The notes: a model not told the origin generated them from the letters alone. 64,000 nt of DNA from Candidatus Poseidoniaceae archaeon (GCA_938084455.1 CALKDX010000028.1:306-64305), one strand, 5' to 3'; shown: positions 406 to 52,986, numbered from the stretch's first letter. Program-made: numbers and translations.

Positions 406-1203
406 ATGGCTGACCCCTTGGTTTGTGTGTCCCTTGAAGGAACAACTGTGAAAGAAATGCTCGATGAAGCAGCTCGAGCAGGTATTGCAGGTGCTGACCT
501 CATCGAAGTTCGCTTCGATCGACTTTACCTGAGCAAACCTCAACCAACCGTCACAGAAAACGAAGAAGGCGAAGTCACCAAAACCATGCCACCTGCCAGC
601 GAGTGGCCGGTTCGTGACTTTGCAGACATCGACATTGAAGAATCCATTACAGCCCTCAAGGAAGGGATTGCGCTGCCGGTCATCTTTGCCGCACGTCCCG
701 TCAGAGAGGGCGGTCACTTCTCTGGCGATGAAGCGCAACGCATCAGCGCCCTCGAGGCAGGTATTGCATCAGGAGCGACTTGGGTTGACCTCGAAGTGTC
801 CATTGAGGACTCCATTCGAACAAAACTCATGAAGGCTGCAAAGGCGTCTTCCTGCAAGGTTGTTGCATCGATCCATGATACTGACAGCACCCCCAGCTCC
901 GAAGAAATTCAAGGACTGATCAAGGACAACGCTGACAAAGGCGATTTAATCAAATTCTGCGGAACGGTCAATGACCATCAAGATGCTTTGCAGATTGTTG
1001 AAGCCACGCACGCCATGAGCAACGAGAAAATCGATTTCGCTGCTATGGCTCTAGGTAACGGCGGCGACTGGGCACGACTGCACGCACCAGTGCTCAACCA
1101 AACAATGGTCTATGCCACCATGCGCAATGAGTTCCGACTCTCAGACAAAGGACTCGTTAACGTTCGTGATCTCAAAGAGGCTTGGAATCTTCTCGAGTAC
1201 TGA
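406..1203 (+). CDS. aroD: 3-dehydroquinate dehydratase, type I-like (shikimate pathway), with an internal acidic insertion
   Basis: N-terminal 'VCVSLEGTTVKEMLDEAARAGIAGADLIEVRFDRL' matches the type I DHQase signature (xxCvsl...gaDlvElRlD.L). C-terminal 'AAMALGNGGDWARL' resembles the ismG..G..SRi motif. 265 aa. Confidence 0.5.
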   Translation: MADPLVCVSLEGTTVKEMLDEAARAGIAGADLIEVRFDRLYLSKPQPTVTENEEGEVTKTMPPASEWPVRDFADIDIEESITALKEGIALPVIFAARPVREGGHFSGDEAQRISALEAGIASGATWVDLEVSIEDSIRTKLMKAAKASSCKVVASIHDTDSTPSSEEIQGLIKDNADKGDLIKFCGTVNDHQDALQIVEATHAMSNEKIDFAAMALGNGGDWARLHAPVLNQTMVYATMRNEFRLSDKGLVNVRDLKEAWNLLEY

Positions 1204-1209
1204 GCCCCG

Positions 1210-2367: not shown

Positions 2368-2414
2368 GGTCTCACCTGCTCTTCCCTAGAGTTGGAGGTT
2401 GAAGGTACTAGCGG

Positions 2415-5400
2415 TCAGCCTCGCCTACGCAGAGGACGAACATAGCCGCTGTCATCGCTACGACGTTCATCCTTTGACAGAATCCCGGGGGCGGGCGGCG
2501 GTGTGTGATGATCCATACCCAATAAGCCGCCTTGACTCTCGACCATTTCAACATCGGAATAGGACTCTGCGGCTTGCTTTGCTTCGTCTTCAAGGTCCGA
2601 CGGTTCACGCATGACAAGCCAGCCTAGAATAAGAGCAACAGAAATCAATGCCACAAAGGTTGCCAAATCCGATCCAGCCTCGGTCAACCAACTCTTCCAA
2701 TCTTCAACGCTGAAGTCTGAAAGGGATGGGGGTTCGGTTGGTGGCGGACTGACTTCGATGTCTTGGACGGTCACTGTGCACATGCCCAAACCATCGCAGA
2801 CTTCGACAAGCAGTGTGTACACGCCTGGCTGTTCATAGTTGGCTGAAACTCGAGTGGTTGAACCCGATAACGGGTCGACCCAATCGTCTGCTGGGTTCCC
2901 ATTTGCATCTTCATCGACCTCAACATCAAGATCCCAACGAACCACGAGGTCAGGGTTCAGAGATTCATCGCGGTCTGAGATTGATCCGTCATTGACATTG
3001 GTGTCCCGATACAAAGCAACACCAAGATCGACTTCAAGGTCAGAAATGTTGGCTCCAAAGGAGTTCGAATCGCCAGAAAAGAGTTCATCTGGAATCAACA
3101 GGTTATGGATCACCGGAGGGTGGTCGACAATCACTGTGAACGTAGCACGGCTAACATCGCCAGTTCCAAAGGCGTCCCGCACGGTCAAGGAGACCGTGTA
3201 TTCACCCGGCAATGTGTAAGCATGCCATGGCGAAGGGGTGTTGTCAATTGGTGTGCCGTCGCCGAAATCCCAAGAATACTGGACCAGTCCGTTCCAATCA
3301 GGCGATTCTGCTTCGAGTGGAATGTACTTGCCCTCGAACATACGGTCACCATCTCGGGTTCCATCTGAATCGAAGTACAGCAGTGTGTTCGGTGCAGCGT
3401 ATGTCTGACCTTCTTCGTTGAACGTTCTTGACCACATATCGGGCATCGAATTTTGATCAAAGGTCGTGGAATCAGTGATGATTTCTCCATTCAACCAAGC
3501 GTCCAAGATCCGAACTGAAATGATTGGCAATGGATTCGCCATTTCGATGGTCATGGTCCTTGGTGCGCTTGATTCACCGGCTTCATCAAACACAATCAGA
3601 GTCACACTGTGCGTCCCTGGTTCGGTGAACGAATGAGTGACCTGTGGCCTGTCGCCAAAGGTGCCGTCCGAGAATGTCCAATTGAAGGTCAAGTCTGATG
3701 AATCACCCACGGTGCCATCGGGATCGAATGAATCACGGCCATCAAAGGTGTAGGGCGTGTCGACTTGTCCGTCTTCAACCCTGAAATCTATGGTCGAAGA
3801 ACCGCTTGTGGCCGTGGTTCGTACAATGAAATCACCAACTGGAAGCTGGTTGTGAACCATTACGCTGAGCGTCGTGTTGACTGAACTCCCGTCATCATCC
3901 GTCACCGTCAACTGTACCGTTTTCAATCCAGGAGAATCCCATGCGGGCATTGGATTGGCACTGTTAGAGGTGGTTTGAGTGAAATCATCAGTTCTGTCGC
4001 TCACGCCACCATCGAGGTTCACTCCGCTTGGGAACGACCAAGCATAAGCGATGATGCTCCCATCGTCATCGGTGAACACATCAGGCATGACGAGAGCGGT
4101 GTAGGTGTACGTCGAAAGATTGTCTGAAAAAATCTGAATTGGTATGCGATTGTTGACGTTGACAATAATTTCTTTGATGCCCGTGTTCACTCCGTCAAAG
4201 ACGGTCAATGTGAGGTTATAACTCACCAATGTGCCTGAAATGTCGCCCCATTCGTGGGCGTATTCATAGCCACCAACAGCAGAGTCAGAGAAACCATCGC
4301 CCCAATCCCAAGAAAATTCGAGTTGGTTCGATGGCACATTGTCCACGGTACGGGCCGCAGAAAAGAGGATCAGTTGGTTGGTCAGAATGTTGATTTCATT
4401 CTCGATGACAACATTGTTCACTGTGATGATTGGAATTGGCGGCGAGGTGTCGCTGACGTTGATCTGCAAGATCGAAGTGTCCGACCATGTGTTGCCTTGG
4501 TCCATGACCCTGAGGGTCACATTGTAGACTCCTGTTGATTCATACGCCCTCAAAGGTGATTTGAGGCCTGAAGTTGAGTTGTCCCCGAAATCCCACGCAT
4601 ACGCCACTGGTGCGTCGAGGTAAGGGAGGGTGTTGTTGTCTAACGACAACCCCCATGCATCGAAGCCATCACCAGTAAATTGAACGTTTTCCCATGTTTG
4701 AGATGCGTTCGGATCGAGGGTTCCATTCGCTGTCGGACGCATGTTGTTCAACACATGAGGTGAGGTCGTGAGGCTGTCAACTGCGGTACCAATCATATCC
4801 ACCATGTCAAGTTGGAAGGTGTATTGGCCGTTGAGTGGGGCAGTGAACCAAAACGATTCCTCAGTGGCGACGCCACCACCTGCAGCAATTCGTTTTGTCA
4901 GCCTGTCCACTTCGACTCCTGACGCATCGAGCACTTTCATTGTGACATCGAGGTCTTCGAAGAAGGCGTTTGAAAAGACCTCGTAGTTGACTTGCGCAGT
5001 GTCTGGAGAACCATCGCCATCACGGTCGATTGTAGCATCGGTCGTGTTGAGCGTGAGGCTGGCCGGTGCAGTGATTCGAGCCGCCTCAATGTCAACTGTG
5101 CCTTGAGGATAAGAAGAGCCACACGATGTGTAATCACAATCGGCGACCGTGCTCGCATACCAAGTGATCGCCCAGACTTCGTCGGTCAAATTGCCAAACC
5201 CTGGAATAAGGGCTGTGGCCACGTTGTTTTGGAAGTTCAAATCGCTCGCAGTCCACAAACCATCGGCTGTTGACTTGCTGACAACGACGCCGTCGAATTG
5301 ACTTACATCGGCGGTCAACCGCATGGTGAGTGGTGCGGGTGCTGCCCCTCCTGGCGTGAACTTGAAGGCGCGAATGCCCCAACCTTCAACGGAATGCCCC

Positions 5401-18515: not shown

Positions 18516-19751
18516 TTGATGAAAGAGAACAGTTTCTTCTCAGATAAGGGGAACCTCATGTCCGACCTTATTATGCAACAAATCGAAACCAGAATGGCCC
18601 AGAAGGGAATCGATCTCAATCTTCTAAGCGATCAAGAATTATCCTTAGTTGCAGAGCGATTTTTGGGCGATGCACCGCCCGGTCACCTTCCACGAGAAAC
18701 CGTGATTTCAACCCTCCAAAGCCAAGAACCAATTCAGCAATGGGCTATGGGCATCAAGTCGAGGGTAGCCGCTGCCGCTGCTGAAAAAATGACCGACACC
18801 ACTCGAACGGCTGTAACTCAAGCAAGGTCAGCATACGAGGCTCGCCGAGACAAAGACCCTCGATTGGCCATGATTGCCGACAAATTTGGCGAATGGCTCA
18901 ATGAATCAAATTACAACTCTGCAGAATTGACCGCAATGGCTGATGCAAATCAAGATGGCATCATCAGCAATGACGAAATTCTCAACCTGATACGCACCAT
19001 GTCAAATGCCGAACCCCCATCTTGGGTGGTCGACCTTGTTGTGCAGCACATTGATGCTGACGGCAACGGATCAATCACGCTTCCAGAATGGTGGGCCTTC
19101 CTCGAGTCGATTGGTTTTGAGGGTGCCAGCCCAGTCTTGGACCCCATCGTCCCAGAACCAACCGCTGCGCCAACTCCGAAACCAATCGCTGCGCCAACTC
19201 CGGAACCAATTATTGCGCCAACTCCTGCACCCGAACAAGATGCCCTTGCTGGCATAGCTTCGACGACCGCAGCCCCAGCAGCGGTTGCGGTCGCAGCAAC
19301 TGCAGCAGCAGTTGCCCCCCAAGCAGTTGCAAAGCCTACGCCTGAACCAGTTGCACAACCAACCCCCGTCGTAGAGGCCGTTCCTGCTGCTCCCGCATCA
19401 AGCGTCGACCCAATGAGTCACGAAGGCATCATTGAGGCACTCTCTGGAGCAAGACTGTTGTCTGAATTCAACTCTATTGTTGCCCAATCAACCTCGCAAA
19501 CATGCACGGTCAAAGTTCAGAGTACTGAGCGATCGCTCATGGCAAGCGGAGAATACCGCGGTGGTCAAACCATCACGGGTGCCCTCAACGGAAGCGATCA
19601 TGTTGTGGCCATTCGATTCCCAGTGGCCGAAACTGAATTCATTGAAGGACTCAAAACTGGCCAAATTGTAACCTCAGAGGCAGTCATTTACCGATGGTCC
19701 GGCGCACTTAAGCAGGCCAACCTAGAAGCCACTGGCGCTCGAATTGCTTGA
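18516..19751 (+). CDS. cytoplasmic EF-hand calcium-binding protein with a Pro/Ala/Thr-rich tandem-repeat linker and a C-terminal unknown domain
   Basis: Two canonical 12-residue EF loops, 'DANQDGIISNDE' and 'DADGNGSITLPE' (DxDxDG/NG...E). Linker 'PTAAPTPKPIAAPTPEPIIAPTPAPE'. No signal peptide. Starts 16 nt after the nucleotidyltransferase gene. Confidence 0.6.
   Translation: MMKENSFFSDKGNLMSDLIMQQIETRMAQKGIDLNLLSDQELSLVAERFLGDAPPGHLPRETVISTLQSQEPIQQWAMGIKSRVAAAAAEKMTDTTRTAVTQARSAYEARRDKDPRLAMIADKFGEWLNESNYNSAELTAMADANQDGIISNDEILNLIRTMSNAEPPSWVVDLVVQHIDADGNGSITLPEWWAFLESIGFEGASPVLDPIVPEPTAAPTPKPIAAPTPEPIIAPTPAPEQDALAGIASTTAAPAAVAVAATAAAVAPQAVAKPTPEPVAQPTPVVEAVPAAPASSVDPMSHEGIIEALSGARLLSEFNSIVAQSTSQTCTVKVQSTERSLMASGEYRGGQTITGALNGSDHVVAIRFPVAETEFIEGLKTGQIVTSEAVIYRWSGALKQANLEATGARIA
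19143..19235 (+). repeat. in-frame ~27-nt tandem repeat (about 3.4 copies) encoding P-[TI]-AAPTP-[KE]
   Basis: 'caaccgctgcgccaactccgaaac' / 'caatcgctgcgccaactccggaac' / 'caattattgcgccaactcctgcac' are seen directly. Confidence 0.5.
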
Positions 19752-41387: not shown

Positions 41388-43931
41388 TCAGATGTAACTG
41401 CCTAGATGAATGACAATCTGGCCTTCGACATGCTCGAACCACATGGTGGAAAGCGTTGAGTTGCTGGGTGAAAATTCAAAGAAATTATCGCCAGGTTGAA
41501 GCGTTGTGGTCGAGTTTATCGTGGTCCACTGTGGCCCATTACCTTCGAAGTTAAGTTGAACTGAGGCAGTTGAGTTGCTTGGATTATAGAAGTTGAAGGT
41601 CCCACTGCTTGGATGAAGAAGTGTACCATTTGTTGCAGCGGTCCACGCAGTCGACCACATTCGGTGAACAACATCCGATCGGAGCAAAATGACTTCCGGG
41701 CCCTCTTCTACGGTAAAATTGAGCCTTGGTAGAGGCGACAAAGGTTCTGAACACACCAACACAGTCGACCCATCTTGCATGAGGACAGTCAGGTTTTGTG
41801 CACCATTGGAGATGGATGGAATGCTTGAAATTTCTCGGATATCAAGGTCCCATACCCATTCACCGCTGGCAGGAGGTAAAGGCGTTGCGAGCGTTGCGTT
41901 GAGCGGACATGGCTCTCCCGTGGCGCTCATTACAGTGCCTGCCCCGAGTTCGAACCCCCAACCTGTTGTCGATTCGTTGGTGATGTTCCACCCATGACCC
42001 GGGACAACTGCTGTCATCGGGAGGGCTGGCGAGCCAGCATGGTACTGGACCTCTTCAAGTTGAATCACATCGAGCACAGAGCCTTGCAGAACAACCCGAT
42101 CTTGACCCCGGACACACACTCGGTCTGGTGCTTCTTCGTACGTTGCTGAAAGCCCTTCATAGCCTTCTATCCAATGCAAACGGGCTTCAGTATCAAACGC
42201 ACCTTGGGCGTTCGGAATTGAGATATTCACGGCTTGCGTACTCATGCCACCAAGGCTCAAGCAGCGTTTGAGTTCACCGTCCTCTTGAGTGAAAAACCAA
42301 GGGGAGGCGACAAAGAGGTCAACATCGGGTTCGAGCGTGATGGTTTCAATGCTGAGGCGCTCCTCTGATTGCGTGAGGACGCCAAAACCAATTGAAATTG
42401 GTGCATCGCCCTGTCCAGACCAAACCATATTCAAAGTGACAGTGCTTTGGGTGCTGGGTGGCAGAACGCTTCCACAGCCACCCTCTGCAATCGAGCGTGT
42501 ATCCTCTCCATCGCATTGCCATGTGAGATCCCAAAACGTGAGATCTGGATCATACCGGTCTTCGAGAATCGCCCAGCCTTTGCTAAGAGATGAAGGGTTT
42601 TTCACCGTTACAACAACTTCGGCGCTCCAAGTTTCATTGACAAGGACTGCTTTGGCGAAACCATCAATGTCGTATTCCACCTCATCGTTCCAATCCTCAT
42701 CCACTGCAAATGGAATCTGCTGAGGGAGTGCGAGAAGAACGATGGCAAGGGCTACAAGGCCCATGTTTTTCATCGATGACAATTCCAATCCCTTGGGTTC
42801 GTCAAGAACAACTGGGGTTCTGCGATCTGAGCCCATAAACAACAGCAATGGAACCGACATTGAAAGCACAAGAAGCCAGATATTGAACCCATTGAAGGCA
42901 TCAAACATCCAAGCAAAGGCCAACAAAAGAAGGAAGATGAAAATCTGATTCGAACTGCTTCTAGCCTCACCATGGCCCGCCCTTGCAACCATCAAACGGC
43001 CACCAGGGAAGGTTGGAATTGGAAGCATGGAAAGGCAACCGAAGAAAGTGAGAACTGCCCCTGCATGCACGAAGGGGTGCGCCCAAACCAACCTTTGCTG
43101 GTATCCATCGGAAAGCGTGAGTTCGCTCAACAACTCCACAGCGAGTGGCGGGTAAGCAATGTTTTGCTGAGAAGTGATGGCCACATAGTCTGGAGTGAGC
43201 CACAAACCAACGCCCCAAAGCACCATGCCCAAACTCACAAGAGTTGCAGGGACGCTGACGGCAGACCACCCGAGGGCTTTGCGATCGGGCCATAGGCGGG
43301 CATCCATTCGTGGCAAAGATGGGATCAGGAACAGACCAAAGGGCCAGATGAGCATGGATTTTGGCAAGGCACCTAAGCTCCATAACGAGATGGAAGGTTC
43401 GGGGACTGGGACAATGTGTCCGACACGAAGCCCAAACCTTGCCGCAACCGCTCGTTGGATATGCGAGGCGATGAATAAACAGCCAAGAACAGGAAGGGTG
43501 TAACCAATCACCGCATCAAGGAAGGACGATTCCGTGAACCAACCGCCTTCGGGAGTTGCCCCCTCAGTCCAGTAGGCGCCCGCCAGGGTGAGGGTCAGCG
43601 CGCTGATGCCCCACATGATCCATTGGAAACTTTTCATCGGAAATTGCCGCTCTGGGACTGGTAAAATCTGAACAACCCATGGTTCGTCAACCAGAAGTTT
43701 ACCCATCCACCCAAGTTTGGCAAGATGTTCGTTCAATCGCAACAACTGTTCGTGTGCATCTTCTTCTGCCTTCACTGAAACATTCCAGGCCGGTAAAACA
43801 GTACCGCCTATCGAACCATGAACCAAAAAATGGCGTTCAAGAATCGTCTTGAGGAGATCTTGCTGCGACCACACATCCTTGTGCGCCTCCATTGGTTCAA
43901 AGGAGGTAGCGTCCGGCTCTGCGTCTTTCAT
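41388..43931 (-). CDS. membrane protein with a degenerate site-2-protease (M50)-like core and a ~450-aa extracytoplasmic C-terminal domain
   Basis: 'FIASHIQRAVAARFGLRV' aligns with M50 'iHELGHalaAr.yGv.v' but has HIQRA instead of HELGH. 'LSMLPIPTFPGGRLM' aligns with 'NLLPipPLDGGr', with Asp replaced by Pro. Multiple TM helices. The C-terminal domain is N-x-S/T rich. Confidence 0.45.
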   Translation of the reverse strand: MKDAEPDATSFEPMEAHKDVWSQQDLLKTILERHFLVHGSIGGTVLPAWNVSVKAEEDAHEQLLRLNEHLAKLGWMGKLLVDEPWVVQILPVPERQFPMKSFQWIMWGISALTLTLAGAYWTEGATPEGGWFTESSFLDAVIGYTLPVLGCLFIASHIQRAVAARFGLRVGHIVPVPEPSISLWSLGALPKSMLIWPFGLFLIPSLPRMDARLWPDRKALGWSAVSVPATLVSLGMVLWGVGLWLTPDYVAITSQQNIAYPPLAVELLSELTLSDGYQQRLVWAHPFVHAGAVLTFFGCLSMLPIPTFPGGRLMVARAGHGEARSSSNQIFIFLLLLAFAWMFDAFNGFNIWLLVLSMSVPLLLFMGSDRRTPVVLDEPKGLELSSMKNMGLVALAIVLLALPQQIPFAVDEDWNDEVEYDIDGFAKAVLVNETWSAEVVVTVKNPSSLSKGWAILEDRYDPDLTFWDLTWQCDGEDTRSIAEGGCGSVLPPSTQSTVTLNMVWSGQGDAPISIGFGVLTQSEERLSIETITLEPDVDLFVASPWFFTQEDGELKRCLSLGGMSTQAVNISIPNAQGAFDTEARLHWIEGYEGLSATYEEAPDRVCVRGQDRVVLQGSVLDVIQLEEVQYHAGSPALPMTAVVPGHGWNITNESTTGWGFELGAGTVMSATGEPCPLNATLATPLPPASGEWVWDLDIREISSIPSISNGAQNLTVLMQDGSTVLVCSEPLSPLPRLNFTVEEGPEVILLRSDVVHRMWSTAWTAATNGTLLHPSSGTFNFYNPSNSTASVQLNFEGNGPQWTTINSTTTLQPGDNFFEFSPSNSTLSTMWFEHVEGQIVIHLGSYI

Positions 43932-44025: not shown

Positions 44026-44643
44026 TCACTTGTTCTTGAATCGCTTGAGCCTGAAGGTCTCTTCACGTTCCATCTCTTCAAGACGGAGTTGAATGAATAC
44101 GCGTGCTTCTTCGAGTTCTGGGATGACTTTGAACTCGAGAGCGTTGACACGTCGCTTTGTAGCCTCAATTTCTTGGAGCAAGCGCTTGAGTGTAGCTTCC
44201 ATTTCTGAAGCACGAACGATTTTTTCAATCAAATTCCCAAAGGACTCACCGGCTTCATCGATGTAGGGTGATGATCCAATGTAACCAACACCACGCTCTT
44301 GGAACGTCGACTTGAGGTTTGTACCGCTCACGCTTGGCACGACGACACCCATGATGTTTCGGCGTTCAACTTCGACTTCGGGGTGGCCTGTGTTTGCGAT
44401 TGCTGCTGCCCGAACCGCCAATCCACCTTCGATGGCGTTAGCAAGGTCAATCCGTTGCTTAGCAAGTCGATAGGTTGCTGTCAAGTCTCGCTTTGCTTCG
44501 ATCATTTCAGCCAAGAGTTGTCGGAATTCGTGGAACAATCCGTCCCGCTTCATCTTCAACAGCTTGTACCCGTTCTTGGTTTGCTTGATGCGCCCCTTGA
44601 GTTTAATCAACTCACTTCGGGTTGGCTTGATGTCGAGTGCCAT
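44026..44643 (-). CDS. atpD: A-type ATP synthase subunit D
   Basis: 'MALDIKPTRSELIKLKGRIKQTKNGYKLLKMKRDGLFHEF' is the canonical AtpD N-terminus. Last gene of the operon. Confidence 0.8.
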   Translation of the reverse strand: MALDIKPTRSELIKLKGRIKQTKNGYKLLKMKRDGLFHEFRQLLAEMIEAKRDLTATYRLAKQRIDLANAIEGGLAVRAAAIANTGHPEVEVERRNIMGVVVPSVSGTNLKSTFQERGVGYIGSSPYIDEAGESFGNLIEKIVRASEMEATLKRLLQEIEATKRRVNALEFKVIPELEEARVFIQLRLEEMEREETFRLKRFKNK

Positions 44644-44673
44644 GTTCTTTGCCTCCAAATCTGTTTACCGAGT

Positions 44674-46053
44674 TCAAGCCTTGTTGTCAGGGTGGTACTT
44701 ATCGATCCACTTCTGGTCAAGTCGCACGAGGTACTTGGTGTCGATTGAAGACATCAAGGTCCAGCAAAGGTCGAGGGTTTCCTCGATGGAACGGTCTTCG
44801 TCACGGGTTTGGCGAAGGAACTTGTCTTCGAACACACCAGAGAAGTCAAGCAGTTGCTTGTCACGCTCGTTGAGTGCGTCTTCACCAACAATGGCAACCA
44901 ATCCACGGAGTTCACGGCCTTGAGCGTACGCAGCGTACATCTGGTCAGAAACTGATTTGTGGTCTTCACGGGTGGTTTTCTCACCAATACACGAACCCAT
45001 CAATCGAGAGAGCGACGGAAGAACGTTGATAGGCGGATAGATACCCTGTTGATGCAATTCACGGGAGATAACAATCTGTCCTTCAGTGATGTAACCGGAC
45101 AAGTCAGGAATCGGGTGAGTGATATCGTCACCGGGCATGGTCAAAATTGGGAATTGAGTGATTGAACCCTTCTTACCCTTGACCAGACCTGCACGTTCGT
45201 AGAGCATGGCCAAGTCGGTGTACATGTAACCGGGGTAACCACGTCGTCCTGGAACTTCTTCTCGAGCAGCACCAATTTGTCGCAAAGCGTCACAATAGTT
45301 GGTCATGTCAGTGTAGATGACAAGAACGTGGTAGTCTTTCTCGAACGCCAGGTATTCTGCTGCGGTTAAAGCAAGACGAGGTGTGATAATTCGCTCAACA
45401 GCAGGGTCGTCCGCTAGGTTGACGAACAACACAGCGTTCTCAAGAGCACCGGTTCGCTCCAAATCGGAACGGAAGAAGTTGTATTCTTCAGCGGTGATGC
45501 CCATAGCGCAGAACACAACAATGAATTCTTCATCAGAATCCTTGAGTTTGGCTTGTCGAGCGATCTGCAGAGCGATGTCGTTGTGTGGGAGACCAGATGC
45601 CGAAAAGATCGGTAGTTTCTGTCCACGGACGAGGCTCGTACACAAGTCGATTGCAGAAACACCAGTTTGAATGAAATCATTTGGGCTCTGTCGGCTGTAC
45701 GGGTTAATCGCTGCGCCGATGATGTCTTCCTTCTGGTCTGCGACGATTTCCGGACCGCCGTCACGTGGGCGTCCTGCTCCGTCGAGAATTCGTCCGACGA
45801 GGTCGGTGCTCACAGGGAGTTTGAAAACGTCACCCATGAAGGTAACACCAGCTTCTCGGTCGATTTTGGAGGTTCCTTCGAACACTTGAACGATAACGAG
45901 GTCATCGGAAGTGTCGAGAACTTGTCCGTTCTTGATGGTTCCATTTGAAAGTCGTAGGGTAACGATTTCACCAAATGCAACAGGCTCAGTCTTGTTCAAA
46001 AAGACCAGAGGTCCTTTCACGTCGGTAATGGTTCGGTATTCTTTTCCAGTCAT
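44674..46053 (-). CDS. atpB: A-type ATP synthase subunit B
   Basis: 459 aa. '[17 protein letters not shown]', '[13 protein letters not shown]' and '[22 protein letters not shown]' are the non-catalytic subunit pattern. Confidence 0.9.
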
Positions 46054-46066
46054 GATATTCCTCTCC

Positions 46067-47806
<1,740 letters not shown>

Positions 47807-47834
47807 TTTTATTTCCTCCATTTTGGTTGGAACA

Positions 47835-48134
47835 TTACTTCCAAAGGTCGACTCCTATTGCCTTGCGAATTGTGTCTCGCAAAGCGGTGTCTTCTTCCGT
47901 TCCGATGCCAAGCACGGTCGGAGAGACAGATGCCGAGAGTTGGTCACGAAGACGCTCTGGCAGTGCGGCAAGGATTGCGGAGTCAACCACGACAATCCCG
48001 ACGCTTTTGTTGTTGAGTAGTGATCTGAAAGTGGCAACCATTGCGTCTTCACCTTCAGGGTTGTGCAGATGATCGACACCTGCAAGTTGGAAACCGAGGG
48101 TGAATTCCGGCGTACCTACGACTGCGATATCCAT
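47835..48134 (-). CDS. atpF: A-type ATP synthase subunit F
   Basis: '[20 protein letters not shown]' is the AtpF N-terminus. 99 aa. Sits between atpC and atpA. Confidence 0.7.
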
Positions 48135-48144
48135 TCATCTCACC

Positions 48145-49188
48145 TCAATTCAGTATGTGTGCTTCGAGCACATCCGTTGGCAAGCCCGCAAGACGGCCTC
48201 GCACAATGAGTCGCAAGTCATCCACTTCTTGTACCTTCATGGCGATGTAATGGATGACTGGAAGAGCGGACACTGGATGCAGGAAACTCATTCGAGCCAT
48301 CATCTTGTGTTCGCGTTCTTTCAGCCAGGTGACCACAGCGTCAAGGCTGCGGGTTTCTGCTGAGGTTGCTAGTGCTTCATCAAAAGAAGCACCATCAAAG
48401 CGTGCTGCGTTACGAAGCAGATCGAGTAAGGCGTCCTTTCCACCGGTAGCAATGGCGGAAAAAGCGCGCTTAGGTACGACCCGTCCTCCGGGTATTAGCA
48501 GGTCAACGATTTGTTCATTGGACAGTCCAACGGCCCCTGCTTCGAGGACGTTGAGGATGTTCCGGTGATCAATTTCACTTGCGACCAAGTCCTTCAAGAA
48601 CCGAACATCGGGTCCTTTTCCTGTTAAGGCTTTGAGTGCGTTTGCGAAGTAATGACGGTCAAGTGCATCTTCGTAATCGGAGAGACGGGCATCTTCTGGC
48701 ACGGCTGCAAGAGCAGAACCGAACGACTTTCGTCTCATCTGAGTCGATGCTGAACGTAGGTCATCAGCGCTTTCGATGATTTTAATCCAAGGCGTATTGA
48801 TATCGTTTAGTTCTGGCAGAATGGAATGAGTAATTTTCTCCATGTCTACATCGTTAGCCACAGACCGCAACACGACCTTTGCGTTGTGGTATTGGTAACG
48901 TGAGGTGTAGATCTCAACCATGGCACGGATTTTTCCGTTGCAAAGGCCGACCATCTTATCCAGTTCGTGTTCGAGGTTGTGAGTGAGGGCTGCTTCTACC
49001 AAATCGCCACCGGTCAAGCGACCAGCGTACATGTCCATTTCAGCACGATAACCAATGTCACCAATGGCGACGGTCAACTGATCCGGTGATTGGCTAATGA
49101 GCTGGCGCAGACGGGCACGATCCGCGAGTTTCTGCCGACGGGACTTTGCCCGGGCAGCAACGTAGGGTGTGTTTCCTGTCATTACCAT
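48145..49188 (-). CDS. atpC: A-type ATP synthase subunit C (d-subunit homolog)
   Basis: 347-aa all-alpha protein. Position between atpE and atpF in the operon. 'YVAARAKSRRQKL' N-terminus. Confidence 0.7.
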   Translation of the reverse strand: MVMTGNTPYVAARAKSRRQKLADRARLRQLISQSPDQLTVAIGDIGYRAEMDMYAGRLTGGDLVEAALTHNLEHELDKMVGLCNGKIRAMVEIYTSRYQYHNAKVVLRSVANDVDMEKITHSILPELNDINTPWIKIIESADDLRSASTQMRRKSFGSALAAVPEDARLSDYEDALDRHYFANALKALTGKGPDVRFLKDLVASEIDHRNILNVLEAGAVGLSNEQIVDLLIPGGRVVPKRAFSAIATGGKDALLDLLRNAARFDGASFDEALATSAETRSLDAVVTWLKEREHKMMARMSFLHPVSALPVIHYIAMKVQEVDDLRLIVRGRLAGLPTDVLEAHILN

Positions 49189-49198
49189 TTAGAATCCC

Positions 49199-49759
49199 TC
49201 ATTCAAACAAAATTGCTGTGGTTGCGCTCAATTCCTCTTTCCAAGATTTTTCGAGCAAGGTGTCAAAGCGCATGTCGTAGGACACTGAGCCGTCGGTGGC
49301 TTCGAGGACGAAGCCTCCCAAACCATCAACTGCATCACCCATGGGTCGCTTTCCAGCGAGTTCTGAGAGCGCCTTTCGATCCATTTCAACAGGGCGGACG
49401 CTGTAATCGCTGCCGATTTCGTCAGCCTTGGCCATCAACGATTTGAGCAAACTTGCTCGACCCTTCATTTTCGGGCTGCTGAGTTGGGCTCGTGTCGTTC
49501 CAAGGGTCTCATCGAGCACCTTTCGGCGTGCGACCAGAATTTCCTTTTGGTTGGCCTGGCGTGCGCTGGCAACGACCTCACGGGCAAGCTGTGCTGCTTC
49601 GCGTTCGGTGCGGCTGGCCGCTTCCGAGCGGATTGTTGCAGCTTTTTCGGTTGCTTCAGCCACAACTGCGTCGGCTTCTTTCTTAGCCTCCGCAATCATA
49701 GCATCGGCTTCCGCCTTTGCTGATTTTGAGATGTCTTTTGCGAGTGTTTCAAGCGTCAT
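49199..49759 (-). CDS. atpE: A-type ATP synthase subunit E (peripheral stalk)
   Basis: 186 aa. N-terminal Ala/Lys/Glu-rich coiled coil (DISKSAKAEADAMIAEAKKEADAVVAEA) plus a C-terminal globular part. Operon position. Confidence 0.7.
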   Translation of the reverse strand: MTLETLAKDISKSAKAEADAMIAEAKKEADAVVAEATEKAATIRSEAASRTEREAAQLAREVVASARQANQKEILVARRKVLDETLGTTRAQLSSPKMKGRASLLKSLMAKADEIGSDYSVRPVEMDRKALSELAGKRPMGDAVDGLGGFVLEATDGSVSYDMRFDTLLEKSWKEELSATTAILFE

Positions 49760-49822
49760 TGTATTTCCTCCGTAATGGTGATTTCAATTGGTCGAAGATC
49801 GACCCTTCAATCGATGGTTCCC

Positions 49823-50128
49823 TCATAGGAAGAGTGGTAGAGCACCGAGAATGACGATGGATTCAGGCAAAGCAGTGAAAATCAATGCTGGACCGAACTT
49901 GCTTCCGTCTTCTGCGAGCATACCGACAGCTGCGCTGCCAATGGCTGCTTGGGACAGACCTGCACCGATTGCGGCCAGGCCGAGTGCGATTCCAGCGCCG
50001 ATGGCTGTGTATCCGTCACCGTCTGATGCCCCGGTTGGGTCTGCTGCTGCTGCTCCTTGAGCAACCATAGTGATGGCTGCCAAAAGGATCAATGTTCTTA
50101 GGCTCGTTTTTAGGGTGTTTGCGTTCAT
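49823..50128 (-). CDS. atpK: A-type ATP synthase proteolipid subunit K (c-subunit, single hairpin)
   Basis: 101 aa. Two TM helices. 'GAGIALGLAAIGAGLSQAAIGSAAVGMLAE' is the Gly/Ala-rich helix 1. The conserved carboxylate Glu sits in helix 2 (FTALPESIVILG). A GGAGGT Shine-Dalgarno lies 8 nt upstream of ATG 50128. Confidence 0.8.
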   Translation of the reverse strand: MNANTLKTSLRTLILLAAITMVAQGAAAADPTGASDGDGYTAIGAGIALGLAAIGAGLSQAAIGSAAVGMLAEDGSKFGPALIFTALPESIVILGALPLFL

Positions 50129-50163: not shown

Positions 50164-52551
50164 CTATGATTGACCCTCGACGTGGAGGGAACGGCCACCG
50201 AGCGGTGCGAAAGCACGGCCGGATCCGTCGTAGAATTTGCCCATCCATTCCACAAAGTGGAGACGGGCTGCGTGAATGGTTGGGGAAAGAATACCGAGGG
50301 CCAAGGCGAAAACTTGGACGAAGAGGAAGATGACGAGGCAGAGGGCTGCAGTCAAGTATCCAGAGGCGCCTCCTGTTTCAAGGCCGGCTAAGATGTTCTC
50401 CCAACCGAGGATGATGGAAACTTCTGCAATCTTGACACCGGCAACGCCGACCGCCATGATGCGGAGGTAGGACAAAGTGTTAGCAAGAAGACCGAATGTT
50501 TCGATTGGACCCATGATGATGCCACCAGCCCAACCGAACCCTTCGTAGACAGCAAGACCGACAATAAGGCAGCAAATGCCGCCGATTAGAAGGAGGTTCC
50601 AGAGGGGTTGAACTTCAAACAATTCATTGTACCCCATCACGAAGTTACGGCAGACCATGAAGCCTCCAACGAGGATCATCAACCAAGAGCCTTTCTCGAA
50701 GAAAGCAGCGCTAAATCCGTGAGCTTTGTTGACATTGAGGAATCCGATGATGAGGCCAACCAAGATGTGGAAGACGCCGAGGTAAACGGCGAGAGAAACA
50801 TATTGCTCCAACCCGTGGCCTGCACTTGCACGGTGGAACGGCATCATCACGAATGGGTGGTCTGGGTCGCCAAGTCCGAGCAGAACTGCAAGTCCTTCGG
50901 GCAGGACAAACACATCGTATGTCCAATCATAGATGCTGGTGAGGAAGGCAATGTCTGGGCCCCATCGGTACCCGTCTTTGAGCGCCCCCGTTGCGTCATA
51001 CATGCTGCCATCCCACACGAAGCCAAAGCCTTCTGCGAAGATGATGCCCCAAATGATGCACCAAACACCCATCCAGCGGAGGACAGTCATGCCTTTCTGA
51101 GCAAGGGGGTCAACGGCGAAGGGCTTAGATCCAAGCCACAAAGAGAGAGCGACAAGAACCGCACCGTAGCCAAAGTCACCTAGAATCATTCCATAGATGA
51201 AAGGGAAGGTCATCATAATGAGCATTGATGGCTCAAAGGTACCATACTTTGGGCGACCGACGAGATCGACCAAAAGTTCGAATGGTTGGGTGGTTTTTCC
51301 ATTTTGGAATTCGATTGGGGGGACGGCGTCTTCATGGTGTTCATCCACTGAAGGCATAGCACGAATCATTGTGAGAGAGATGTCGAGTTCGGGGAGGTTG
51401 ATTTTCCCATCGCCATCCAGATCCATTGCTTTGACAAGAGGACCAATGTCCCAAGGAGGCAAATCGCCGATGCTCGTAGATTTCAAGGCCTGTTGGAACT
51501 CGTAACTATCGATCTTACCAGAATCATCCAAGTCGATTGATTTGAAGAATTCAAACACGGATTGCTTGGTCTTGATGAGGTAATCAGAAAGCATCACCAA
51601 TTCCTTGGCGACCTCGGGCGAATCATGATGGTCGTCGTGACCGTGGCCGTGGTGTGGGTCAACATAGGCTTCAATCGAAACGTGAGAAGCGATGGCACCG
51701 AGTTTATCCTTCACCATATCGCCTTCAGAGGTCGGAACCCAGCCGTCCAAAGCAAACGCTTGGTCGCTGACAGCCACGAGGGTTGGAGAGGTGTAGATTG
51801 CGTCTTCACGGGTCAAGTGTTCCTCAAGAGCGACAAGTGAGCGACCGTTTCGATCGACCCAAGCGTCGAGCGCTTCTTGAGAGGAAGCGATAGTGTTCTC
51901 GAGTGCGTCGATTTGAGAGAGTACGCTCGAGGCTTTTGAGGCAGGGGAGCCTTCGCCTGCTGGAATTTGAACCGCTTTAGCACCAAGTTCAGCAAGGCAG
52001 ATTTGCACCTCTGCTGCGTGTTGAGTCTGGCAAGCAACTGCGACGATGCCTGGTGCGGAGTGTAGAAGGATTTCCGTTCCAAGCGCTGAGAAGACAGACT
52101 TTGCTTTGCTGGCTCTTGGAGTTTCGCCCACATAGACTTCCAGACCGTCGAACCCGCCCATCAATTCCAGAGGGATGTCCAAAGGAGCAAGGCGTTCGAG
52201 GACCTGATGTTGTTCTTTCAAAGAGGAAATTGAGGCTTCACTTTCCCGGATGGTGTCAAGGTAGGAAAGTGCATCATCGATTTTGGATTCGAACCCTTCT
52301 ACCAATTTCTTGACTTTACCGAGCGACACTGGCCCCTCGATGTTCATCGCCTGAACGGAGGAGGAAACACCGCGAACCTTGGTGAGCAAGGCACTGGTTT
52401 TGTTTGCGCCTTCGGTGGAAAGCGCACGTCCAACACCGATTCCATCTTGGAAATGGCCGTATTCTTCAATGTGAACACATGAGAGCGTAGCGCACATTCG
52501 CAGAACTTCTTCCATCTTATCGACGGGAGCCGCCACGGTAAGGCGGGACAT
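50164..52551 (-). CDS. atpI: A-type ATP synthase subunit I (a-subunit/stator) carrying a His-rich and double EF-hand insertion
   Basis: ~795 aa. N-terminal cytoplasmic domain, then an insertion (aa ~305-412: PHHGHGHDDHHD ... DLDDSGKIDSYE ... DLDGDGKINLPE), then a C-terminal multi-TM domain with the conserved Arg region (LRIMAVGVAGVKIAE). Operon position between atpH and atpK. Confidence 0.8.
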   Translation of the reverse strand: MSRLTVAAPVDKMEEVLRMCATLSCVHIEEYGHFQDGIGVGRALSTEGANKTSALLTKVRGVSSSVQAMNIEGPVSLGKVKKLVEGFESKIDDALSYLDTIRESEASISSLKEQHQVLERLAPLDIPLELMGGFDGLEVYVGETPRASKAKSVFSALGTEILLHSAPGIVAVACQTQHAAEVQICLAELGAKAVQIPAGEGSPASKASSVLSQIDALENTIASSQEALDAWVDRNGRSLVALEEHLTREDAIYTSPTLVAVSDQAFALDGWVPTSEGDMVKDKLGAIASHVSIEAYVDPHHGHGHDDHHDSPEVAKELVMLSDYLIKTKQSVFEFFKSIDLDDSGKIDSYEFQQALKSTSIGDLPPWDIGPLVKAMDLDGDGKINLPELDISLTMIRAMPSVDEHHEDAVPPIEFQNGKTTQPFELLVDLVGRPKYGTFEPSMLIMMTFPFIYGMILGDFGYGAVLVALSLWLGSKPFAVDPLAQKGMTVLRWMGVWCIIWGIIFAEGFGFVWDGSMYDATGALKDGYRWGPDIAFLTSIYDWTYDVFVLPEGLAVLLGLGDPDHPFVMMPFHRASAGHGLEQYVSLAVYLGVFHILVGLIIGFLNVNKAHGFSAAFFEKGSWLMILVGGFMVCRNFVMGYNELFEVQPLWNLLLIGGICCLIVGLAVYEGFGWAGGIIMGPIETFGLLANTLSYLRIMAVGVAGVKIAEVSIILGWENILAGLETGGASGYLTAALCLVIFLFVQVFALALGILSPTIHAARLHFVEWMGKFYDGSGRAFAPLGGRSLHVEGQS

Positions 52552-52578
52552 TTCTGCGGTTGCGAACATGGGAACAAC

Positions 52579-52890
52579 TCACTGAGAATTTACTTTTTCA
52601 AGCAAGTGGGCGACTGCCTTGTCCTTGCGATCTGCTGCCGAAGATTCGATGGCGTCAACCACTTTTTGGCCTTCTTTGGCAACACCTTCTGCTTCTTTGT
52701 TTGCTTTGGCTCGAGCAGCGTCGAGGGTGGCTTGAGTATCTGAGACTGAACCATCGGTTGCGTCAGCAATGAGTTGGACGGATTGGCGGCGGGCTTCCGC
52801 TGCAATTTTTCCGACTTCAGCTTGGGCATCTGCAAGTTGCTTTTCGGCATCTTGTTCTGCTTGCTTGATTTTGCGAAGGACGTCAGCCAT
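52579..52890 (-). CDS. atpH: A-type ATP synthase subunit H
   Basis: 104 aa. Ala/Glu/Lys-rich coiled coil (ADVLRKIKQAEQDAEKQLADAQAEV). First gene of the operon. Confidence 0.6.
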   Translation of the reverse strand: MADVLRKIKQAEQDAEKQLADAQAEVGKIAAEARRQSVQLIADATDGSVSDTQATLDAARAKANKEAEGVAKEGQKVVDAIESSAADRKDKAVAHLLEKVNSQ

Positions 52891-52986
52891 ACCCAAGATA
52901 ATCACCAGCAATTCGGCTGAATGGGAGGGGGTTTATGAGGCTAATGGGGAGGTCTCTATGGCCAAACAAGGGGCCTGCGTCGATGT

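What the first reader, a model, noticed from the sequence alone, without database searches (positions are those of the whole stretch)
51334..51660. Double EF-hand plus His-rich insertion in the A-ATP synthase stator subunit I (atpI)
Between the N-terminal cytoplasmic domain and the membrane domain, the a-subunit homolog carries an insertion of ~110 aa. It contains 'PHHGHGHDDHHD' (His-rich) and two canonical 12-residue EF-hand loops, 'DLDDSGKIDSYE' and 'DLDGDGKINLPE'. Both have D/D/S-or-D/G/I/E at positions 1, 3, 5, 6, 8 and 12. They are about 26 residues apart, the usual spacing for a paired EF-hand. Archaeal AtpI subunits are normally ~650-700 aa, and EF-hands are rare in archaea. This would place a Ca2+/metal-binding module on the stator next to the rotor interface, so divalent-cation regulation of the A-ATPase is a testable idea. 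A second EF-hand protein sits at 18516..19751 in the same window, which makes a random match less likely.
Basis: partly seen in the sequence, partly recalled or inferred. Interest (0 to 1): 0.78.

Follow-up and report, generated by a model that had tools for sequence, protein, structure and literature searches.

The report
Calcium-binding module inserted in archaeal ATP synthase
One subgroup of the abundant marine Group II archaea has a conserved, calmodulin-like pair of calcium-binding EF-hands built into the stator subunit of its rotary ATP synthase, an unreported arrangement suggesting that calcium may regulate energy conversion in these cells.

Summary
ORF 50164-52569 (- strand, 801 aa) is subunit I of an A-type ATP synthase, inside a complete H-I-K-E-C-F-A-B-D operon. 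Residues ~319-404 form a canonical EF-hand pair: Pfam scores above threshold, matches to centrin and calmodulin, and an AlphaFold helix-loop-helix x2 fold.

- **Where it sits:** the module lies in the flexible tether between the cytoplasmic N-terminal domain and the membrane domain.
- **Who has it:** only one monophyletic subclade of Poseidoniaceae (MGIIa), 11 of about 76 Poseidoniales species representatives retrieved. Sister lineages at 57-64% identity lack exactly ~97 aa.
- **Constraint:** every Ca2+-ligand position is invariant (one is D or N) in 130 sequences, and dN/dS is about 0.03-0.05.
- **Likely origin:** the module is 55-84% identical to free-standing EF-hand proteins of MGII, the probable source.

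It is an ancestral linker also present in relatives without the insert, and the module landed inside it.

Function is inferred, not shown. My best guess is a Ca2+ sensor tethered in cis that modulates the ATP synthase. A purely structural Ca2+ site or a docking module remain live rivals. I found no published description. It is a new variant of a known kind.

The parts
50164..52569 (-). atpI: A-type ATP synthase stator subunit I (a-subunit homolog), 801 aa including the EF-hand insertion
   Evidence: Pfam V_ATPase_I 110 bits; NCBIfam V-type ATP synthase subunit I models; Foldseek top hits are T. thermophilus V/A-ATPase chain N and eukaryotic a subunits; 982 homologs.
51667..52569 (-). N-terminal cytoplasmic domain (aa 1-301): alpha/beta lobes plus long coiled-coil hairpin
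   Evidence: AF2 pLDDT 70-94 with helices 83-130 and 209-259; Foldseek match to 3rrk, the N-terminal domain of subunit I.
51616..51666 (-). N-side His/Asp-rich tether (aa 302-318, YVDPHHGHGHDDHHDSP); ancestral, not part of the insertion
   Evidence: Present in insert-less Poseidoniales AtpI; 32% His and 30% Asp+Glu; pLDDT <50.
51358..51615 (-). Inserted EF-hand-pair module (aa 319-404): helix 0, EF-hand 1, EF-hand 2
   Evidence: Pfam EF-hand_1/5/6/7 above threshold; phmmer to centrin 9e-11 and calmodulin ~1e-8; AF2 helices 322-334, 338-345, 355-364, 375-382, 392-403 with a beta bridge between the loops; Foldseek hits all EF-hand proteins; absent from sister AtpI.
51568..51606 (-). Helix 0 (aa 322-334, KELVMLSDYLIKT): conserved helix preceding the first EF-hand, shared with free-standing homologs
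   Evidence: E323, L324, L327 and L331 are 100% conserved, M326 and Y330 99%; the same ELVMLxDYL motif occurs in the free proteins; helix in both AF2 models.
51499..51534 (-). EF-hand loop 1, DLDDSGKIDSYE (aa 346-357)
   Evidence: D346, D348, S350, G351 and E357 are 100% conserved in 130 AtpI and invariant in the free homologs.
51388..51423 (-). EF-hand loop 2, DLDGDGKINLPE (aa 383-394)
   Evidence: D383, D387, G388, N391 and E394 are 100% conserved; position 385 is D or N only.
51286..51357 (-). C-side tether (aa 405-428): residual His/acid patch (DEHHEDA) followed by the conserved PPIEFxNG segment leading into the membrane domain
   Evidence: HH(D/E)(D/E)x-xPPI aligns with the end of the ancestral linker in insert-less relatives; the PPI..PFELL..GRPKYG segment aligns with E. 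hirae NtpI residues 336 onward; low pLDDT.
50167..51285 (-). Membrane domain (aa 429-801) with the conserved LSYLR arginine (R703, nt 50461-50463)
   Evidence: NCBIfam profile positions 308-640 match aa 408-793; S700, Y701 and R703 are invariant in alignment A1; long tilted helices 679-732 and 734-780 in the AF2 model.
52579..52911 (-). atpH (peripheral-stalk subunit H, V-ATPase G-like), upstream in the operon
   Evidence: Weak Pfam V-ATPase_G_2 hit, E 4e-4, below threshold; conserved position in related loci.
44026..50128 (-). Rest of the operon: K/c (49823-50128), E (49199-49759), C (48145-49188), F (47835-48134), A (46067-47821), B (44674-46053), D (44026-44658)
   Evidence: Pfam ATP-synt_C, vATP-synt_E, vATP-synt_AC39, ATP-synt_ab (x2) and ATP-synt_D. 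F is assigned from the ORF's position in the operon and my reading of its sequence, with no HMM run. K start reassigned to the internal ATG at 50128 by inspection.
18516..19751 (+). Second EF-hand-pair protein in the window: distant paralog of the module, not part of the ATP synthase
   Evidence: Loops DANQDGIISNDE and DADGNGSITLPE; Pfam EF-hand_5/1/6 marginally above threshold; BLASTP to the AtpI insert 28% identity over 76 aa, E 4e-8, including the helix 0 and PPxW equivalents.

Best explanation
**What it is (shown).** A single ~97-aa insertion happened once, in the ancestor of a subclade of Poseidoniaceae (MGIIa). It placed a calmodulin-lobe-like module (helix 0 plus two canonical EF-hands) into the disordered His/Asp/Glu-rich tether of A-ATP synthase subunit I. 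That tether links the cytoplasmic N-terminal domain to the membrane domain. The module belongs to an MGII-specific EF-hand family that also occurs as free or otherwise-fused proteins. It has since been kept under strong purifying selection, with all Ca2+ ligands intact.

**How it most likely works (inferred).**
- The N-terminal domain is cytoplasmic and the module precedes the first transmembrane helix, so the module faces the cytoplasm, where free Ca2+ is normally sub-micromolar.
- It would therefore be largely empty at rest and fill when cytosolic Ca2+ rises.
- Ca2+ binding would open the EF-hand pair and expose its Met/Phe/Leu-rich groove.
- The groove would then clamp a nearby amphipathic segment. 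Candidates are its own helix 0, the conserved PFELLVDLVGRP segment at the membrane surface, or a neighbouring stalk or rotor subunit (C/d, c-ring loops, E/H).
- This would change the length or stiffness of the stator tether, or obstruct the rotor, and so tune or brake the enzyme. One example would be limiting wasteful ATP hydrolysis when ion gradients, and with them Ca2+ extrusion, collapse.
For: - **Identity and fold.** Pfam EF-hand families score above threshold. Centrin matches at 9e-11 and calmodulin at ~1e-8. AF2 gives helix-loop-helix x2 with an inter-loop beta bridge, at pLDDT 75-91. All top Foldseek hits are EF-hand proteins.
- **Insertion and single origin.** The nearest relatives (57-64% identity) lack exactly this segment. 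In an NJ tree with the insert masked, all insert-bearing AtpI form one clade, sister to insert-less L011/L043.
- **Constraint.** Ligand positions are invariant (one is D or N) in 130 sequences. The insert is as conserved as, or more conserved than, the N-terminal domain (58.5% vs 55%), while the flanking linkers are less so (41%). dN/dS is 0.03-0.05 in the unsaturated pairs.
- **Ca2+-type ligand set.** Glu at position 12 of both loops matches the usual Ca2+-preferring bidentate ligand (established EF-hand chemistry).
- **Flexible tethers.** Residues 302-319 and 406-465 have pLDDT <50.
- **Met enrichment.** Met is 4.5% in the insert, 2.1% in the N-terminal domain and 2.8% in the window's long ORFs.
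- **Reusable module.** It also occurs fused to TM segments and to SAP domains.
- **Precedent.** Ca2+-calmodulin binds the N-terminal region of Drosophila V-ATPase subunit a1 (PMC3987144).
Against: - No experiment shows Ca2+ binding, a conformational switch, or any effect on ATPase activity. No target of the module has been identified.
- Partner subunits H, K, E and C show no clade-specific indels that would mark a co-evolved docking site.
- The junction tolerates unrelated insertions in other lineages (P0206). The site is permissive, so position alone does not imply regulation.
- Close relatives function without the module, so it is not needed for core catalysis.
- Met enrichment is modest.
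- The AF2 models say nothing reliable about where the module docks. The full-length model has pTM 0.36.
Confidence: 0.5

Rival explanations
1. Structural calcium site. The EF-hand pair is constitutively metal-loaded (Ca2+ or Mg2+) and simply adds a folded, rigid spacer or brace to the stator tether. This would stabilise the link between the N-terminal domain and the membrane domain in this lineage, with no signalling role.
For: EF-hand-like domains attached to V-ATPases can be purely structural: the mEAK-7 EF-hand-like domain is reported not to sense Ca2+ (PMC9263379). Strong conservation fits a structural role equally well. The module replaces part of a disordered linker.
Against: Unlike mEAK-7, every canonical Ca2+ ligand is present and invariant. 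A constitutive site in a sub-micromolar-Ca2+ cytoplasm would need unusually high affinity. Long disordered linkers remain on both sides, which suits a rigid brace poorly. Sister lineages do without it.
Confidence: 0.25
2. Docking or oligomerisation module. The EF-hand pair recruits another protein to the ATP synthase, or pairs two ATP synthases as in EF-hand dimers such as S100 and polcalcins. Its role would be localisation or supercomplex formation rather than control of rotation.
For: The same module is fused to unrelated partners in MGII (TM proteins, SAP domains), as expected of a general interaction module. The only documented role of Ca2+-calmodulin on V-ATPase a1 concerns SNARE assembly, not pumping (PMC3987144). 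The tethers are long enough to reach outside the complex.
Against: No candidate partner gene is linked to the operon. Gene order and the lengths of the subunits compared (H, K, E, C) match those of insert-less relatives. Nothing suggests dimeric A-type ATP synthases in archaea (my own knowledge). This was not tested directly.
Confidence: 0.17
3. Functionally neutral passenger. A paralogous EF-hand cassette was copied into a permissive disordered linker and merely tolerated.
For: The junction accepts unrelated insertions elsewhere (P0206). Close relatives lack the module. The module resembles free paralogs by up to 84%, so copying or gene conversion does occur.
Against: It is retained in every member of the clade sampled (130 sequences), with invariant ligands and dN/dS 0.03-0.05. 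That is lower than for the adjacent N-terminal domain. The flanking linkers drift freely (41% identity).
Confidence: 0.04
4. Artefact. A chimeric assembly or mis-called ORF joins an EF-hand gene to atpI.
For: None beyond the existence of near-identical free-standing modules.
Against: The same continuous ORF is found in at least 118 protein clusters at 90% identity. They come from ENA, JGI, NCBI, Tara and Logan assemblies, some on contigs of hundreds of kb, and in 11 GTDB species representatives. The insertion point is identical throughout.
Confidence: 0.01

Closest known systems
Canonical A/V-type ATPase subunit I/a (T. thermophilus V/A-ATPase chain N, e.g. 6QUM/6R0Z; E. hirae NtpI 8WCI; N-terminal domain crystal structure 3RRK)
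   Same: Same overall architecture: cytoplasmic hairpin N-terminal domain, then a C-terminal membrane domain with the conserved LSYLR arginine, in the same operon context.
   Different: None of the solved subunits aligns with aa ~318-400. T. thermophilus residue ~301 and E. hirae residue ~336 align directly after the insert. No EF-hand is present in them, nor in any other of the best 150 50%-identity cluster representatives.
Ca2+-calmodulin binding to Drosophila V-ATPase V0 subunit a1 (V100) (PMC3987144)
   Same: A calmodulin-type EF-hand Ca2+ sensor is associated with the a-subunit of a rotary V/A-type ATPase.
   Different: There calmodulin is a separate four-EF-hand protein binding in trans. 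The reported role is SNARE assembly and spontaneous neurotransmitter release, not pump control. Here a single two-EF-hand lobe is covalently inserted in cis, in an archaeal ATP synthase.
EF-hand-like domain of the TLDc proteins mEAK-7 / Rtc5p / OXR5 that bind V-ATPase (PMC9263379; bioRxiv 10.64898/2026.07.01.735876)
   Same: An EF-hand-type fold is physically associated with a V-type ATPase and its peripheral stalk and stator region.
   Different: Those proteins act in trans and bind V1 subunits. For mEAK-7, the domain lacks the acidic Ca2+ ligands and was shown not to respond to Ca2+. The MGII insert keeps a complete, invariant ligand set.
Prokaryotic calmodulin-like EF-hand domain fusions (Schaffer et al. 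2020, PMC7016017)
   Same: A calmodulin-like EF-hand pair is used as a portable module fused to membrane or enzymatic proteins in prokaryotes.
   Different: The fusions described there are bacterial (7TM, heme oxygenase, NOS, NADPH oxidase and others). None of the fusion partners in the passages I read was a rotary ATPase subunit.
Free-standing MGII EF-hand-pair proteins (P0121-P0184; annotated 'Ca2+-binding EF-hand superfamily protein')
   Same: Same module from helix 0 (ELVMLxDYL) to the end of EF-hand 2 (INLPELDIAL..IR). Identity is 55-84%, with the same invariant ligands.
   Different: They are stand-alone, TM-anchored or SAP-fused proteins, encoded upstream of a YchF/OLA1-type GTPase rather than in the ATP synthase operon.

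Membership tests
A/V-type ATPase subunit I/a (Pfam PF01496, NCBIfam PRK05771) | Significant match to the family HMM | tested here: met
   PF01496 110.1 bits against a threshold of 30.7. NCBIfam subunit I models reach E 4.7e-103 but stay below their strict equivalog cut-offs (346 vs 670 bits), as expected for a divergent lineage with an insertion.
A/V-type ATPase subunit I/a (Pfam PF01496, NCBIfam PRK05771) | Cytoplasmic N-terminal hairpin domain followed by a multi-helix membrane domain with two long tilted C-terminal helices | tested here: met
   AF2 secondary structure. Foldseek hits to T. thermophilus chain N, to eukaryotic a subunits and to the 3rrk N-terminal domain.
A/V-type ATPase subunit I/a (Pfam PF01496, NCBIfam PRK05771) | Conserved essential arginine in the LSYxR motif facing the c-ring | tested here: met
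   S700, Y701 and R703 are invariant in alignment A1.
A/V-type ATPase subunit I/a (Pfam PF01496, NCBIfam PRK05771) | Encoded within an A-type ATP synthase operon | tested here: met
   H-I-K-E-C-F-A-B-D on the - strand. H is a sub-threshold Pfam hit and F is assigned by position only. The order around atpI (H, K, E, C) is the same in related loci.
Canonical EF-hand pair (Pfam PF00036 / PF13499) | HMM scores above the gathering threshold | tested here: met
   EF-hand_1 34.5 (25.4), EF-hand_7 33.0 (30), EF-hand_6 32.3 (25) and EF-hand_5 30.5 (25.9).
Canonical EF-hand pair (Pfam PF00036 / PF13499) | 12-residue loops with oxygen ligands at positions 1, 3, 5, 9 and 12 (Glu at 12), Gly at 6 and a hydrophobic residue at 8 | tested here: met
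   Both loops fit. D346, D348, S350, G351, E357 and D383, D387, G388, N391, E394 are 100% conserved; position 385 is D or N in 130 sequences.
Canonical EF-hand pair (Pfam PF00036 / PF13499) | Helix-loop-helix twice, paired through a short beta bridge between the loops | tested here: met
   AF2 gives H338-345 / loop / H355-364 and H375-382 / loop / H392-403, with strands at 353-354 and 389-390. pLDDT is 75-81 in the full-length model and 82-91 in the domain model. Foldseek matches ACF7 EF1-EF2 (TM 0.58-0.60, rmsd 2.9 A), centrin, calmodulin and CaBP7.
Canonical EF-hand pair (Pfam PF00036 / PF13499) | Actual Ca2+ binding | not testable with these tools
   Requires ITC, 45Ca overlay or NMR on the recombinant module.
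Calmodulin-type Ca2+ sensor | Four EF-hands in two lobes | tested here: not met
   Only one two-EF-hand lobe plus an extra N-terminal helix. It is calmodulin-lobe-like, not a calmodulin.
Calmodulin-type Ca2+ sensor | Ca2+-dependent opening and binding of an amphipathic target helix | not testable with these tools
   Only indirect hints: Met/Phe/Leu-rich conserved core and modest Met enrichment. No target identified.
Dockerin type I (PF00404) | Duplicated ~22-residue F-hand segments lacking the entering helix; HMM above threshold | tested here: not met
   Dockerin_1 gives only E 0.079, 13.6 bits against a threshold of 22.9. Both loops have entering helices in the AF2 models and Glu at position 12.

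The most novel reading that the evidence does not exclude
The rotary ATP synthase of a major clade of marine Group II archaea is directly gated by cytosolic Ca2+. A calmodulin-like lobe built into the stator would act as a Ca2+-dependent clutch or brake on the rotor or on stator compliance. It would be one output of a wider, lineage-specific Ca2+ signalling network built from the same EF-hand module (free, TM-anchored and SAP-fused paralogs). That would be the first second-messenger switch hard-wired into a prokaryotic rotary ATPase. By Rosetta-stone logic, it would also suggest that the free EF-hand proteins regulate the enzyme in trans in insert-less relatives.
Probability: 0.25. Interest if true: 0.85.

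Novelty: new variant of a known kind. Interest (0 to 1): 0.62.

Why it matters
- **Ecological weight.** Marine Group II archaea (Poseidoniales) are among the most abundant archaea in the surface ocean and are uncultured, so their physiology is inferred almost entirely from sequence.
- **Gap in ATPase regulation.** Rotary ATPases are regulated in many ways: the epsilon subunit, IF1, the zeta subunit, reversible disassembly and TLDc proteins. No regulatory EF-hand built into the stator turned up in my literature searches or among the solved a/I subunits I compared.
- **Gap in archaeal signalling.** Ca2+ signalling in archaea is essentially uncharted.
- **A concrete handle.** A strictly conserved, canonical Ca2+-binding lobe in subunit I is easy to express as a soluble domain of roughly 90-130 aa. 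That allows a direct test of whether Ca2+ links to energy conservation in these organisms.
- **A clean evolutionary example.** It dates a domain insertion by intragenomic module shuffling into a core bioenergetic enzyme.
- **If only structural.** It would still mark a clade-specific change in stator architecture, useful as a taxonomic marker for this MGIIa subclade.

Tried and rejected
1. **His-rich stretch as part of the insertion: rejected.** It aligns with a His/Asp/Glu linker in insert-less AtpI.
2. **Dockerin, SPARC or other extracellular Ca2+ motifs: rejected.** The hits are sub-threshold, entering helices are present, and the N-terminal domain puts the module in the cytoplasm.
3. **Assembly artefact: rejected.** The same ORF recurs in many independent assemblies.
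4. **Co-evolved indels in partner subunits H, K, E and C: none found.**
5. **The same fusion in other lineages: none found.** None of the other 149 best cluster representatives has EF-hand loops. The remaining ~5,800 weaker homologs could not be listed, so independent fusions elsewhere are not excluded.
6. **Insert-only protein search.** It returned free-standing homologs but, oddly, not the AtpI proteins themselves. It cannot be used as a census.
7. **Taxonomic placement of the free paralogs through cluster names.** Too coarse: 'Poseidoniaceae', 'Euryarchaeota', 'Thermoplasmatota'.
8. **dN/dS.** Synonymous sites were saturated in the insert for 16 of 21 pairs. The two clearly unsaturated pairs (insert dS 0.62 and 1.55) carry the estimate.
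9. **Full-length AF2 model.** pTM 0.36, so the relative placement of the module and the rest of the subunit was not interpreted.
10. **Literature.** Five searches for a prior description of the insertion found none. Three more located analogues and context.
11. **+ strand ORFs over the region** (51197-51505 and 51562-51840). I treated them as shadow frames of the well-supported - strand gene and did not search them separately.
Full report
**1. What is in the sequence**

The finding lies inside a single - strand ORF, 50164..52569, of 801 aa. All three quoted motifs are present:
- PHHGHGHDDHHD at aa 305-316
- DLDDSGKIDSYE at aa 346-357 (nt 51499-51534)
- DLDGDGKINLPE at aa 383-394 (nt 51388-51423)

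The protein is subunit I, the a-subunit homolog, of an A-type ATP synthase. Pfam V_ATPase_I scores 110 bits. NCBIfam subunit I models reach E 4.7e-103, with profile positions 308-640 matching aa 408-793. The whole-protein AlphaFold model matches T. thermophilus V/A-ATPase chain N and eukaryotic a subunits. The essential LSYLR arginine (R703) is invariant. The gene sits in a complete H-I-K-E-C-F-A-B-D operon on the - strand.

**2. Is it an EF-hand pair, and more than chance?**

Four Pfam EF-hand families score above their gathering thresholds over aa 337-394. The isolated segment matches centrin (9e-11) and many calmodulins (~1e-8) across both hands in the PDB sequence search.

AlphaFold2 predicts the following elements:

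| Element | Residues |
|---|---|
| Helix 0 | 322-334 |
| Entering helix, EF-hand 1 | 338-345 |
| Exiting helix, EF-hand 1 | 355-364 |
| Entering helix, EF-hand 2 | 375-382 |
| Exiting helix, EF-hand 2 | 392-403 |
| Short strands pairing the two loops | 353-354 and 389-390 |

pLDDT is 75-81 in the full-length model and 82-91 in the domain model. All top Foldseek hits for the domain model are EF-hand proteins. They include ACF7 EF1-EF2 (TM 0.58-0.60, rmsd 2.9 A), CaBP7, centrin, calmodulin and parvalbumin.

The loop pattern occurs 5 times in the window's open frames against 0.83 expected. A properly spaced pair never arose in 300 shuffles.

**3. Is it an insertion, and whose?**

I ran a full HMMER search of 1.84 billion cluster representatives. 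It gave 5,997 homologs, of which only the best 150 are listed. Among those, only one full-length cluster (P0105, 783 aa) aligns end to end with the query. The next best are P0185 (684 aa, 57% identity) and P0186 (679 aa, 49%). Both align in two stretches and lack ~97 residues (query 416 aligns with residue 319). Of the other representatives, only the 220-aa fragment P0198 shows an EF-hand loop. P0185's cluster is annotated Candidatus Poseidoniaceae.

Among the 80 best loci returned from GTDB species-representative genomes:
- 11 (L001-L010 and L036, including an isolate labelled MGIIa-L1) carry both loops.
- All others lack them. These include Ca. Poseidonia alphae, Poseidonia spp., an MGIIa-L2 isolate and every Thalassarchaeaceae (MGIIb) genome.

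In a neighbour-joining tree of AtpI with the insert masked, all insert-bearing sequences form one clade. Its sisters are the insert-less L011 and L043. That indicates a single gain within Poseidoniaceae. The closest species representative to the window is a Poseidoniaceae MAG fragment, L037 (93% identity over the C-terminus).

**4. Correction: the His-rich run is not part of the insertion**

Insert-less relatives have a His/Asp/Glu-rich linker at the same position, for example VDDHHGHDGHDDHHEPEPPV in P0185. Most Poseidoniales AtpI have one, and so do a few distant homologs.

In the insert-bearing proteins the left part of this linker (HHGH..DD) precedes the module. The right part (..HH[D/E][D/E]x-xPPI) follows it. 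The module therefore landed inside an ancestral disordered linker. Both remnants have pLDDT below 50. They are 32% His and 30% acidic.

**5. Is it functional?**

In 130 insert-bearing AtpI sequences, the ligand positions and the loop glycines are invariant. These are D346, D348, S350, G351, E357, D383, D387, G388, N391 and E394. Position 385 is D or N only. Helix 0 is also nearly invariant (E323, L324, M326, L327, Y330, L331).

| Region | Identity between divergent pairs |
|---|---|
| Insert | 58.5% |
| N-terminal domain | 55% |
| Flanking linkers | 41% |
| Membrane domain | 74% |

Nei-Gojobori dN/dS could be estimated reliably only for the two clearly unsaturated pairs. It is 0.048 and 0.031 for the insert, against 0.069 and 0.066 for the N-terminal domain. 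The module is clearly under purifying selection.

**6. Where did it come from?**

A search with the insert alone found 64 clusters of small MGII proteins (81-245 aa). They share the whole module from ELVMLxDYL to INLPELDIAL..IR at 46-71% identity. Some carry an N-terminal TM segment and some a C-terminal SAP domain. Over the module proper, AtpI-to-free identity averages 55% and reaches 84%. Their genes lie upstream of a YchF/OLA1-type GTPase. The same ligand columns are invariant in them.

The window's second EF-hand protein (18516-19751) is a more distant member of the family (28% identity, E 4e-8). Meheust et al. 2022 had already noted MGIIa- and MGIIb-specific families with calcium-binding domains (PMC9258230). 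So the AtpI insertion is best read as intragenomic recruitment of a lineage-specific EF-hand cassette.

One pattern remains unexplained. In a tree of the module, AtpI inserts and free modules interleave. L001-type inserts are up to 84% identical to the free proteins P0121 and P0125. They are only about 57% identical to MGIIa-L1-type AtpI inserts. Gene conversion or recent copying between the two loci could explain this. So could the limited resolution of an 86-residue alignment.

**7. How it probably works**

These points are shown:
- a canonical, conserved EF-hand lobe
- on flexible tethers of roughly 18 and 24 residues
- between the N-terminal domain and the conserved PPIEF..PFELLVDLVGRPKYG segment, which aligns with E. 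hirae NtpI residue 336 onward

These points follow from the established architecture of V/A-ATPases, which is my own knowledge:
- The N-terminal domain is cytoplasmic and holds the peripheral stalks.
- Its C-terminal end lies in the membrane-proximal lobe, near the c-ring and subunit C/d.
- The module is therefore cytoplasmic and close to the rotor-stator interface.

The rest is inference:
- With sub-micromolar resting Ca2+, a calmodulin-type site would fill only when Ca2+ rises.
- It would then open and clamp an amphipathic segment, either its own or one from a neighbouring subunit.
- That would alter stator compliance or obstruct rotation.

I give this cis-tethered-sensor reading about 0.5. 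The rivals are a constitutive structural Ca2+ site (0.25), a docking or oligomerisation module (0.17) and a neutral passenger (0.04, disfavoured by the selection data). Partner subunits H, K, E and C show no clade-specific indels, so no target can be nominated.

**8. Comparison with what is known**

- **Solved a/I subunits.** None has anything at this position.
- **Closest functional analogue.** Ca2+-calmodulin binds Drosophila V-ATPase subunit a1, in trans, with a role in SNARE assembly (PMC3987144).
- **TLDc proteins.** mEAK-7, Rtc5p and OXR5 bring an EF-hand-like domain to V-ATPases. The mEAK-7 domain lacks Ca2+ ligands and does not respond to Ca2+ (PMC9263379).
- **Bacterial fusions.** Calmodulin-like EF-hands are fused to many bacterial proteins. 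No ATP synthase subunit appears among the partners in the passages I read (PMC7016017).
- **Prior description.** Five full-text searches for one found none.

The gene is a bona fide member of the subunit I family, and the insert is a bona fide EF-hand pair. It is calmodulin-lobe-like but not a calmodulin, because it has one lobe only. It is not a dockerin.

**9. Verdict**

This is a new domain architecture, a new variant of a known kind. It is conserved in a defined subclade of a globally abundant archaeal group, and it offers a direct biochemical test of Ca2+ control of an archaeal ATP synthase. Interest 0.62.

Noticed in passing
window 51616-51666 and 51322-51357 (- strand; AtpI aa 302-318 and 405-416): A His/Asp/Glu-rich disordered linker between the N-terminal and membrane domains is ancestral in Poseidoniales AtpI and present in insert-less relatives. 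Its function is unknown. It might be a metal site or a proton-collecting patch near the cytoplasmic half-channel.
   Followed up: partly
proteins P0121-P0184; loci L081 6001-6444, L082 1854-2297, L083 2033-2476: A family of free-standing, TM-anchored or SAP-fused MGII proteins carries the same EF-hand module (55-84% identity). It is encoded just upstream of a YchF/OLA1-type GTPase. In a module tree these proteins interleave with the AtpI inserts, which hints at gene conversion or repeated copying.
   Followed up: partly
window 18516-19751 (+): A 411-aa protein has a distant copy of the EF-hand module at aa ~116-191. This is followed by a long Pro/Ala-rich linker and an uncharacterised C-terminal domain.
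   Followed up: partly
window ~50850-51010 (- strand; AtpI aa ~520-575): The window's own subclade (801-aa proteins) has about 18 extra residues in a loop of the membrane domain, compared with other insert-bearing AtpI (~783 aa).
   Followed up: no
window 49823-50128 (- strand), c/K subunit: The c subunit has an N-terminal hydrophobic extension and a single hairpin with Q in helix 1 and a PES motif in helix 2. From memory this resembles Na+-binding c-ring signatures. Coupling-ion specificity was not examined.
   Followed up: no
window 41388-43931 (- strand): An 847-aa ORF lies directly downstream of atpD and has no Pfam match at E <= 0.001.
   Followed up: no
L042 (PBRN01000018.1), match 1079-3088: The record is titled 'Pseudobdellovibrionaceae bacterium' but encodes a Poseidoniales-type AtpI (49% identity) with the archaeal H, K, E and C neighbours. 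It is probably a mis-binned contig.
   Followed up: no
proteins P0206 and P0195 (alignment A1): P0206 has an unrelated Lys/Glu-rich insertion at the same N-terminal/membrane junction. P0195 (842 aa) has a ~130-aa insertion in the C-terminal membrane region. The subunit I scaffold tolerates lineage-specific insertions at several sites.
   Followed up: no
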